A stretch of DNA of 63,789 nucleotides, the filler included, from Stramenopiles sp. TOSAG23-6 (lineage: Eukaryota): assembly GCA_900128565.1 (NCBI GenBank). It is 38 parts of 38 records of this genome, joined end to end, with 100 filler letters (N's around TTAATTAATTAA, not from the genome) between each part and the next. Parts side by side here need not be neighbours in the genome. Positions count along the whole stretch, not along the records: positions 47,216 to 48,789 come from LT638848.1; 37 more parts are not named here. The stretch is one strand, 5' to 3'. Positions 47,331-48,363 of this stretch are shown piece after piece. Below the pieces are notes generated by a model. It was given only the letters and a program-made list of their open reading frames with translations, had not been told where the DNA came from and made no database searches. Positions within the stretch are counted from its first letter, which is position 1; each line of letters starts with the position of its first letter. Position numbers and translations under genes: made by a program.

Positions 47331-48363
47331 ATGTTTCTGCATTGCAGTTGCTGAGCTCATCCCATAAAACATTTTATAGAAATGTCCATCGATTTCAACC
47401 AATTCTCCCCCACTTTCATCGTGACCTGCAAACATGCCACCAGCCATCACAAAATCAGCACCAGCACCAAAAGCTTTAGCAATATCACCTGGGCATTTGC
47501 AGCCTCCATCCGCGATAACTTTACCTCCAAGACCATGTATTGTGAAATTGTATATTTTTTCAAAAAATTGTTTTTTTTGTTAGGTACGAAATTTCGTACG
47601 AAAAAAAAATTTAGACAAAAAATTGAAAAAAAACTACAACGTACGTGTGCGGATTCGGCACATTCGATAATAGCACTTAATTGAGGGTAACCTACCCCAG
47701 TTTGTTTACGCGTCGTGCAGACACTACCTGGACCAATCCCGACCTTTACAATATCAGCCCCTGAAAGAATGAGTTGATTAGTCATGTATTTTGGGAAAAT
47801 ATTTTCATTGTTTTTTGTTAGGTACAAAATTACGTACGAAAAAAAATGAATTAAAAATTGATCCTGAAAACATACATATCTCCAGTAACAACATTTCCTG
47901 CAATAATTGTGTGATGAGGAAACGTTTTACGACACTTTACAACATATTCAACGAAATGCTCGGAGTAGCCATTAGCTATGTCTAAGCACAAAAAGTTGAC
48001 AGCAGGAACAGCTTTAGCAATTAACTGAATTAACTCGAAGTCTTTATCGCTTGTACCGCTGCTGATGGCAACATACGGTAAAACTTCCGGTGAACTCTGC
48101 GCAAATTCAACCCACTCCGCAACAGTGTAATGTTTATGCATGGCAACCAAAACTTTTTGTTTTGATACTGCTTTGGCCATTTCAAACGTACCTACGGTAT
48201 CCATGTTGGCGACAATCAAAGATGTGCCACTCCACTCACGCCCGCTGTGCTTAAATTTGTGCACACGCTCGATTTGAACTTCTTTGCGCGAACGCAATGT
48301 AGATCGTTTCGGAACAAATAAAACATCCTTAAAGTCAAGTTTTATATCATTGATGAGTCTCAT
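47331..48363 (-). CDS. GMPR: GMP reductase (type 1, GuaC/GMPR); introns 47784-47875, 47535-47644, 47216-47330
   Basis: [55 protein letters not shown]...DGGC, FYGMSS.TAM. Confidence 0.97.

What the first reader, a model, noticed from the sequence alone, without database searches (positions are those of the whole stretch)
47535..47875. Extended, nearly invariant branch-point cassette TTTCGTACGAAATTT(T/C)GTACCTAAC with palindromic core
Seen: dozens of introns in unrelated genes, always in gene orientation, carry this ~25-nt motif roughly 30-60 nt upstream of the 3' end, while the surrounding T-tracts vary freely. GTACGAAATTTCGTAC is a perfect palindrome, and the common TTTTGTAC variant preserves it as a G-U pair in RNA. 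Established: the U2 branch consensus is TACTAAC and the U12 consensus is TCCTTAAC; TACCTAAC matches neither exactly. Inference: an unusually long branch signal, possibly a hairpin or an extended pairing with a variant U2 snRNA, compensates for the lost AG. A second possible hairpin, TTTTGAAATATTTTTCCAAAA, sits just before the 3' end.
Basis: partly seen in the sequence, partly recalled or inferred. Interest (0 to 1): 0.75.

Follow-up and report, generated by a model that had tools for sequence, protein, structure and literature searches.

The report
Branch-site box of a copied intron
The flagged motif is the conserved middle of a roughly 100-base intron copied into dozens of genes of an uncultured marine protist; only its right-hand part, which looks like the branch site for splicing, is kept, and the palindrome beside it decays and shows no sign of acting as an RNA hairpin.

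Summary
The motif is real. There are 57 matches with at most 2 mismatches against 0 expected, and a family profile finds 84 copies on 24 of 38 short contigs. Copies on one contig almost always share a strand (16 of 19 multi-copy contigs). The two flagged copies must be removed exactly, 92 and 110 bases, to give a GMP reductase collinear with homologues. Their ends are most simply read as GT...AT.

Only the right part (TTTYGTACCTAA) is near-invariant. TACCTAA is intact in 49 of 53 copies found by the left arm, whereas the left arm is intact in 26 of 71 copies found by TACCTAA. The palindrome shows no compensatory change, and the second proposed hairpin shows none either. The C/T variant tracks subfamilies.

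Ordinary GT-AG introns occur on contigs that also carry the family. One kind has a plain TACTAAC box. This argues against a changed U2, but no snRNA gene could be examined. RNA libraries gave no splice junctions.

The scan found this intron family before on other pieces of this genome.

The parts
47784..47875 (-). Family intron 1 of the GMP reductase gene, 92 bases. It starts GTATGT and ends ATACAT.
   Evidence: Removing exactly these 92 bases gives a protein collinear with P0004, P0005 and P0113. The flanking exons match Pfam IMPDH profile positions 2-156 and 160-203. Profile hit of 49.1 bits over positions 1-106.
47817..47837 (-). Cassette of intron 1 (GTACGTAATTTTGTACCTAAC). The presumed branch A is at 47818, 34 bases before the 3' end.
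   Evidence: 1 mismatch; distance 34.
47645..47783 (-). Exon 2 of the GMP reductase gene, lying between the two flagged introns.
   Evidence: Pfam IMPDH positions 160-203, E 2.5e-17.
47535..47644 (-). Family intron 2, 110 bases. It starts GTACGT and ends ATACAT.
   Evidence: exons at profile positions 160-203 and 208-271. Profile hit of 32.4 bits. In this register the preceding dinucleotide is AC, so an AT...AC reading would not give AT at the 5' end.
47579..47599 (-). Cassette of intron 2, the perfect-palindrome C variant (GTACGAAATTTCGTACCTAAC). The presumed branch A is at 47580, 45 bases before the 3' end.
   Evidence: 0 mismatches; distance 45. The local 6-bp hairpin is predicted in the minimum-energy fold.
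47216..47330 (-). Third family intron of the same gene, cut by the contig end. It has a tandemly doubled 5' splice-site module (47316-47330) and a cassette at 47257-47277.
   Evidence: 59.7 bits.
47876..48363 (-). Exon 1 of the GMP reductase gene.
   Evidence: Pfam IMPDH positions 2-156; homologues.

Best explanation
The cassette is the internal core of a repeated, transposon-like ('introner'-type) spliceosomal intron family.

Its right-hand 9-13 bases (TTTYGTACCTAAC) act as the branch-site box. The branch is probably the last A of CTAA. Purifying selection keeps the box in every copy because each copy must be spliced out of a gene.

The left-hand arm that completes the palindrome came with the founding element. 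The cassette reads as two tandem 12-mers, TTTCGTACGAAA and TTTYGTACCTAA. The left arm is free to change after insertion.

The 3' cut is set by the element's own conserved end (...ATACAT), not by a fixed distance from the box.

Shown: the repeat family, the sense orientation, the need for exact removal, the unequal conservation of the two arms, and the absence of covariation.

Inferred: that the box is the branch site, that removal is spliceosomal, and that the ends are GT...AT.
For: Family and abundance.

Sense orientation: 16 of 19 multi-copy contigs have one strand only.

Exact removal is needed in a conserved enzyme. The public gene model P0003 reads through the introns.

Reciprocal ascertainment: TACCTAA is intact in 49 of 53 sense copies found by the left arm. 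GTACGA is intact in 26 of 71 copies found by TACCTAA. Fisher p=7e-11.

The right-hand GTAC has about 2% changes. The left-hand copy has 7-51% per column.

Degenerate copies keep RTACCTAAC when the left arm is gone, for example 22204-22229 and 14843-14868.

Geometry: the box lies 31-59 bases from the 3' end. The TACTAAC of the ordinary LRR-gene introns lies at a comparable distance, about 36 bases before CAG.

The position after the presumed branch A is the least conserved of the box (C in 52 of 71).

AT precedes the 5' GT in 25 of 32 copies with a complete 5' end, and the element ends in AT in 38 of 49. This fits a 2-base target duplication.

Introner families of Micromonas and of fungi are reported to carry their own 5' site, branch box and 3' site (PMC4540971 and PMC3609843, passages read).
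Against: No RNA evidence. In two metatranscriptome runs the exons of this contig have almost no cover. No junction at the intron ends was among the 15 joints shown (206 were not shown). One 151-base RNA-library contig runs unspliced across the 5' end of intron 2.

The branch has not been mapped.

TACCTAAC is a poorer match to the universal U2 GUAGUA segment (recalled) than the TACTAAC used by ordinary introns on contig 23690-25275. So why GTACC is kept is unexplained.

At least two family-like GT...AT stretches lack the box (12921-12960 and 53443-53535).

Copies are related by descent, so part of the 'conservation' may be youth or subfamily structure rather than selection.
Confidence: 0.7

Rival explanations
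1. The extended box (GUACCUAAC) pairs over 8 or more bases with a changed or second U2-like snRNA (segment such as GUAGGUAC). This strong pairing allows AG-independent choice of the 3' site.
For: The right-hand GTAC directly upstream of CCTAA is as conserved as CTAA itself, about 2% change against 7-51% per column in the left-hand copy. Pairing to a standard U2 (recalled GUAGUA) would not require that. The projected 3' ends are AT in 38 of 49 copies.
Against: A contig carrying family copies (24735-24870) has four GT-AG introns with a plain TACTAAC box. Another has a probable GT-AG intron with no CTAAC at all. The organism's spliceosome therefore handles ordinary and weak branch sites. The U2 branch-pairing segment is nearly universal (recalled knowledge). 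No snRNA could be examined.
Confidence: 0.1
2. The palindrome folds into an RNA hairpin that presents or positions the branch site, or measures the distance to the acceptor.
For: Where the palindrome is intact, the local hairpin appears in the minimum-energy fold (4 of 8 introns folded). Three of the eight fold clearly better than shuffles, with z of -3.6, -3.6 and -2.7.
Against: 0 of 6 pairs have compensatory change, and pairing is no better than in shuffles. A full 6-bp stem is possible in only 28 of 71 copies. Five of the 8 folds have z between -0.9 and -1.5. The distance from box to 3' end varies from 31 to 59. Earlier notes on other pieces reached the same verdict.
Confidence: 0.04
3. The palindrome serves the element at the DNA level, for example as a binding or recognition site needed only for copying or transposition. 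It is kept in active master copies and decays in settled copies.
For: Intact left arms go with well-kept end modules. Among copies with a GTAC arm, 18 of 25 with a readable 3' region have a recognisable 3' module, against 8 of 19 with an ATAC arm. The cassette is a tandem 12-mer whose first unit is itself palindromic. A similar idea has been put forward for introner structure and propagation (PMC4540971 and PMC3609843, passages).
Against: No transposase or autonomous element is in the window. No empty-site allele appeared in two seawater DNA runs, whose contigs cross the intron borders with the intron present. The pattern is equally explained by a functionless inherited arm.
Confidence: 0.12
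4. The elements are not spliceosomal introns. They would be removed at the DNA level, or by another RNA route in which the paired ends bring the borders together, as proposed for euglenid non-conventional introns or Amoebophrya non-canonical introns.
For: The 3' ends are not AG. The ends are short inverted repeats (GTAT...ATAC) flanked by AT. Some folds pair the two ends. No spliced RNA was seen.
Against: There is a strong yeast-like 5' site (GTATGT or GTACGT), a CTAAC box, T-rich sense strands and strict sense orientation. Copies with 5' GTACGT keep ...ATACAT at the 3' end, so the end pairing is not compensated. DNA contigs from two independent seawater runs carry the introns in place.
Confidence: 0.04

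Closest known systems
Introner elements of Micromonas (Simmons et al. 2015, PMC4540971; passages read)
   Same: Many near-identical introns sit in unrelated genes, always in sense orientation. The only conserved short motifs are the 5' site, a branch box and the 3' end, plus U-rich tracts. A sequence complementary to the 5' site lies downstream in the intron. Here GUAC next to the box is complementary to the 5' GUAY.
   Different: Micromonas elements end in CAG and their branch box is GacUGAC. Here the projected end is AT in 38 of 49 copies and the box is GTACCTAAC. No covariation links the 5' site to the cassette here: 5' +4 C goes with left-arm G in 3 copies and A in 4; +4 T goes with G in 14 and A in 6.
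Introner-like elements of fungi (PMC3609843; passages read)
   Same: These are high-copy introns with their own splice sites, branch sequence and pyrimidine tracts. They degenerate towards ordinary introns while keeping their splicing signals.
   Different: The fungal elements have canonical GT-AG ends and are reported to show many compensatory changes in stable structures. None was found here.
Transposon-derived introners surveyed across eukaryotes (Gozashti et al. 2022, PMC9860276; passages read)
   Same: Short terminal inverted repeats and a target-site duplication that supplies part of a splice site. Marine protists are enriched.
   Different: The passages read report rare GC and GA 5' sites and treat GY/AG as the core splice-site letters. 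No passage read mentions an AT 3' end, MAST or stramenopiles (0 occurrences of 'mast' and 'stramenopile').
Non-canonical introns and introner elements of Amoebophrya (Farhat et al. 2021, PMC7789003; passages read)
   Same: Repeated introns without GT-AG ends, with inverted repeats at the ends and short direct repeats across the borders. They also occur in a marine protist.
   Different: In Amoebophrya the borders are highly variable, no single signature exists, and U1 was not found. Here the 5' GTAYGT and the CTAAC box are strong and uniform, and only the 3' dinucleotide departs.
U12-type (minor) introns
   Same: A long, strict branch box and tolerance of non-AG 3' ends.
   Different: The 5' site is GTATGT, not RTATCCTT. 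The box differs from TCCTTAAC and lies 31-59 bases from the 3' end rather than about 10-20. Both consensus sequences and the distance rule are recalled.

Membership tests
U2-type spliceosomal intron | 5' splice site GTRNGT-like | tested here: met
   Of 32 copies with a complete 5' end, 27 start GTATGT or GTACGT. The others start GTATAT (2), GAACGT (1), GTGCGT (1) and one has an N.
U2-type spliceosomal intron | Branch box of CTRAY type upstream of a pyrimidine-rich tail | tested here: met
   CCTAA is intact in 49 of 53 copies found by the left arm. The box lies 31-59 bases before the 3' end and the tails are T-rich.
U2-type spliceosomal intron | 3' terminal AG | tested here: not met
   The projected last two bases are AT in 38 of 49 copies, AG in 3 and other in 8. 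In the two flagged introns no AG gives the conserved protein.
U2-type spliceosomal intron | Removal from RNA with lariat formation | tested here: inconclusive
   RNA-library contigs gave no listed junction at the intron ends, and one contig runs unspliced across a 5' site.
U12-type intron | 5' RTATCCTT and a TCCTTAAC box 10-20 bases from the 3' end (recalled consensus) | tested here: not met
   The 5' end is GTATGTTTT. The box is GTACCTAAC at 31-59 bases from the 3' end.
U12-type intron | Presence of U11, U12, U4atac and U6atac snRNAs | not testable with these tools
   No snRNA hit in the window. No genome is held.
Introner (transposon-derived intron family) | Many near-identical introns in unrelated genes of one genome | tested here: met
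   84 profile hits on 24 of 38 contigs. Genes include GMP reductase, multicopper oxidase and an LRR protein.
Introner (transposon-derived intron family) | Target-site duplication and/or terminal inverted repeats | tested here: met
   AT precedes the 5' GT in 25 of 32 copies, and the element ends ...ATAC-AT. The termini GTAT and ATAC are inverted.
Introner (transposon-derived intron family) | Presence/absence polymorphism or other proof of recent mobility | tested here: inconclusive
   Contigs of two seawater DNA runs cross the borders of intron 2 with the intron present. No empty site was listed.

The most novel reading that the evidence does not exclude
The strictly kept GUAC next to the branch A is read by something other than standard U2 pairing. 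This could be a second, changed U2-like snRNA. It could also be direct pairing with the intron's own 5' end (GUAY is complementary to GUAC), which would place the 5' site beside the branch A. Either extra interaction could let this spliceosome finish the second step at AT instead of AG. That would be a natural case of AG-independent 3' site choice driven by an intron-borne signal.
Probability: 0.12. Interest if true: 0.85.

Novelty: new variant of a known kind. Interest (0 to 1): 0.6.

Why it matters
Introners that carry their own splice signals are known. A very abundant family whose copies have a yeast-strength 5' site and branch box but mostly end in AT is not described in the papers I searched or read. 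The passages read were from PMC5778133, 10.64898/2026.04.17.719054, PMC9860276 and PMC7789003.

The family offers many natural replicates for asking which intron-borne signals allow a spliceosome to do without AG.

It also has a practical cost. The public gene model of the flagged gene (P0003) translates through the introns.

For the specific claim of this finding, the useful result is the split: the branch box is constrained and the palindrome is not.

Tried and rejected
1. RNA evidence. One run search found two metatranscriptome runs holding 6-7% of the sampled words. Laid on contig 47216-48789, these words proved to be the family introns themselves (summed depth about 18,000) while the exons had about 0-2.6. 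No splice junction was listed and no verdict on splicing is possible. The family peaks in two seawater DNA runs are about 78,000-104,000 and 23,000-31,000 against exon depth of about 4-5. The tool warns that such sums include other organisms and are not copy numbers.

2. snRNA search. Rfam at gathering scores gave 0 hits. At E<=5 it gave 5 weak hits, none an snRNA. No whole genome is held.

3. More copies elsewhere. A metagenome-contig scan with a 20-base pattern gave 1 contig, L001, with one full copy of the C variant and a CACAAT-type 3' module. A viral-contig scan with a 16-base pattern gave 35 single matches, and none of these 35 loci (about 472 kb) matched the family profile. They are chance matches.

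4. CpG decay as the source of the C/T and G/A variants. CpG observed/expected is 1.0 in the window, so I make no such claim.

5. Pairing of the 5' splice site with the left arm, as in the Micromonas model. No covariation was found.

6. Translated-intron peptides in public proteomes. Only P0003 was found among 6 candidates.

7. AG depletion in the tails. 8 of 38 tails hold an internal AG against 19.7 in mononucleotide shuffles. The copies share descent, so the shuffle is not a fair null.

8. The open-frame test of orientation is crude, with 37 of 84 copies unclear.

Full report
WHAT THE WINDOW IS. The 63,789 bases are a chain of about 38 short contigs, mostly about 1.58 kb and sorted by length. 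They are joined by runs of N around TTAATTAATTAA. The DNA is AT-rich, with GC of 0.18-0.42 per 1.5 kb. It encodes eukaryotic proteins such as GMP reductase, a multicopper oxidase, an LRR protein and what I read as a dynein heavy chain (the dynein name is my reading of the translation, not a search result). The best database match to the flagged gene is P0003, which its source names 'GSMAST32.ASY1.ANO1.388.1 assembled CDS'. Earlier notes of this scan call the organism an uncultured marine stramenopile.

THE OBSERVATION.
- GTACGAAATTTYGTACCTAAC occurs 57 times with at most 2 mismatches, against none in 100 shuffles.
- A profile built from 16 complete copies finds 84 copies on 24 of the 38 contigs.
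- A complete copy is 89-131 bases long. It reads: GTATGTTTT, a T tract, often CAATTTCGAATTT, TTTC-GTACGAAATTTTGTACCTAAC, a T/A tract, GAAATATTTTTCCAAAATACAT.
- The T tracts vary in length. The 26 bases of the cassette align without gaps in all 71 copies found by TACCTAA.
- Copies on one contig share a strand in 16 of 19 multi-copy contigs (137 same-strand pairs against 12).
- The three mixed contigs are: an apparent convergent gene pair (1598-3293); an inverted duplication of identical ORFs (35421-35999 and 36526-37104); and one weak antisense hit lying inside an intron-like stretch (59899-59982, 14.8 bits).

THE FLAGGED STRETCH. Positions 47535-47875 hold two family introns and the exon between them, on the minus strand, in a GMP reductase gene.
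- Removing 47784-47875 (92 bases) and 47535-47644 (110 bases) gives a protein that aligns without gap to P0004, P0005 and P0113.
- The three exons match Pfam IMPDH profile positions 2-156, 160-203 and 208-271.
- Registers shifted by -2, -1 or +1 give the same protein here. The protein alone therefore fixes the length removed, not the exact borders.
- GT...AT is the register that gives both introns a standard 5' GT. In the -2 register intron 2 would begin AC.
- The public model P0003 instead translates through the introns.

IS IT A BRANCH BOX? The branch was not mapped, so this is inference. Four lines support it.
- (a) The right end is CTAAC, 31-59 bases (median 43, n=48) from the projected 3' end.
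- (b) Unequal conservation under reciprocal ascertainment. Of 53 sense cassettes found by their left arm, 49 have TACCTAA intact. Of 71 found by TACCTAA, only 26 have the left GTACGA intact. Fisher p is 7e-11. The right-hand GTAC shows about 2% change per base. The same letters in the left arm are conserved at 49%, 89%, 93% and 68%.
- (c) Degenerate copies keep RTACCTAAC after losing the left arm.
- (d) Intact left arms go with well-kept 3' modules. The left arm therefore changes together with the rest of the element while the box does not.

THE HAIRPINS.
- For the palindrome (6 pairs, 4-base loop), no pair changes on both sides. 75.3% of cells pair against 76.3% in shuffles, and the outer G-C pair is broken in 27 of 50 distinct rows.
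- A full stem is possible in 28 of 71 copies.
- Folding eight introns gives z-scores from -3.6 to -0.9. The local hairpin appears only where the palindrome happens to be intact.
- The C/T alternative at palindrome position 12 follows the type of 3' module (T: 24 CCAAAAT against 5 CACAAT; C: 3 against 6; p=0.009). The single copy found in a public metagenome contig fits this, having C with CACAAT. The variant is therefore a subfamily marker, not a repeated G-U-preserving change.
- The cassette is also two tandem 12-mers (TTTCGTACGAAA, TTTYGTACCTAA). Because GTAC is self-complementary, this by itself produces the palindrome (my reading).
- The second proposed hairpin pairs in 52.5% of cells against 51.1% in shuffles.

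VARIANT U2 OR U12? This could not be tested. There is no snRNA in the window and no genome is held. Indirect evidence is against it.
- The contig with family copies at 24735-24870 holds an LRR gene with four near-identical GTAAGT...TACTAAC...CAG introns. The first is 23816-23919, with its box about 36 bases before CAG.
- Contig 40513-42090, which has a family-like cassette at 41963-41988, has a probable GT-AG intron (41327-41423) with no CTAAC.
- The 5' site and the distance from box to 3' end do not fit U12-type introns (recalled consensus).
- What remains unexplained is why GTAC next to CCTAA is kept so strictly. TACCTAAC pairs less well with the standard U2 segment (recalled) than TACTAAC does.

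DOES THE BOX COMPENSATE FOR THE MISSING AG? This is untested.
- Projected 3' ends are AT in 38 of 49 copies, AG in 3 and other in 8.
- A 40-base GT...AT stretch with the family's 5' module but no box (12921-12960) is needed to join two frames of a multicopper oxidase. Its upstream exons match Cu-oxidase_3 profile positions 10-61 and 73-103 of 119. The downstream exon gave no Pfam hit on its own.
- A 93-base copy with both end modules also lacks the box (53443-53535).
- These two cases argue against strict dependence, if they are really spliced.

RNA AND ENVIRONMENT.
- Family sequence is extremely abundant in two seawater DNA runs and is present in two metatranscriptome runs. The exons of this contig are barely covered in the RNA runs.
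- No splice junction was listed. One RNA-library contig (151 bases, 47617-47767, no differences) crosses the 5' site of intron 2 unspliced. This could be pre-mRNA or carried-over DNA.
- DNA contigs from the seawater runs cross the 3' border of intron 2 with the intron in place.

COMPARISON AND NOVELTY.
- Introners of Micromonas and introner-like elements of fungi carry their own 5' site, branch box and 3' site. They sit in sense orientation (PMC4540971) and degenerate towards ordinary introns (PMC3609843) (passages). The cassette is the same kind of thing.
- What differs is the 3' end: AT instead of AG.
- Amoebophrya has non-canonical repeated introns, but with highly variable borders (PMC7789003, passages).
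- I found no description of this family in four full-text searches. I also found none in the passages read of the single-cell stramenopile paper PMC5778133, of 10.64898/2026.04.17.719054 or of the introner survey PMC9860276. I did not see the supplements of these papers, and they could hold relevant tables.
- The same family and the same verdict on the palindrome were already noted by this scan on other pieces of this genome. I tested the hairpin, the orientation, the geometry and the mis-annotation again here, independently.

VERDICT. The right 9-13 bases are most likely the branch-site box of an introner-type GT...AT intron family (confidence 0.7). Neither hairpin is supported. The variant-snRNA idea stays open but is disfavoured.

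Noticed in passing
whole window: The window is a pseudo-scaffold of about 38 contigs of about 1.58 kb, in descending length order, joined by N runs around TTAATTAATTAA. Many contig ends fall inside family introns, so the repeat seems to break the assembly.
   Followed up: partly
47216-48366 (minus strand); protein P0003: The public gene model for this GMP reductase translates through the family introns. The cassette then appears as spurious peptides such as FSYEILYLT. The same peptides occur in many open frames of the window.
   Followed up: partly
12921-12960 (+): A 40-base GT...AT stretch has the family's 5' module but no branch box. Its removal joins two frames of a multicopper oxidase at a conserved motif.
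   Followed up: partly
53443-53535 (+): A 93-base family-like copy has both end modules but no GTACCTAAC box. It contains two internal TAG triplets.
   Followed up: no
23690-24530 (+): An LRR gene is built of 24-residue repeat exons, each followed by a near-identical 104-base canonical intron (GTAAGT...TACTAAC...CAG). Exon and intron were duplicated together in tandem.
   Followed up: partly
41327-41423 (+): A probable ordinary GT-AG intron (GTAGGT...TTTTAG, 97 bases) joins two adjacent open frames. It has no CTAAC-type box.
   Followed up: no
35421-35999 (+) and 36526-37104 (-); 30578-31765 and 62375-63562 (-): Identical ORFs lie in inverted orientation on one contig, possibly an amplification or assembly chimera. 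Two near-identical copies of an OTU-domain gene lie on different contigs.
   Followed up: no
about 4790-4810 (-), 14115-14135 (+), and coding frames across the window: Telomere-like CCCTAA repeats lie inside family introns. The same hexamer repeat reads as NPNPNP in many open frames.
   Followed up: no
47316-47330 (-); 42193-42714 (-); 45017-45179 (+); 59620-59717 (+): There are tandem partial duplications inside family introns: a doubled 5' splice-site module, and two or three cassettes in a row.
   Followed up: no
tails between the box and the 3' end of 38 copies: An internal AG occurs in 8 of 38 tails against about 20 in mononucleotide shuffles. Where present it mostly lies 8-13 bases after the presumed branch A. 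Shared descent of the copies makes the shuffle a weak null.
   Followed up: partly
47216-48789, runs X3, X4, X6, X9: Summed depth on family introns is thousands of times that on the flanking exons in seawater DNA runs. Family sequence is also abundant in metatranscriptome contigs.
   Followed up: partly
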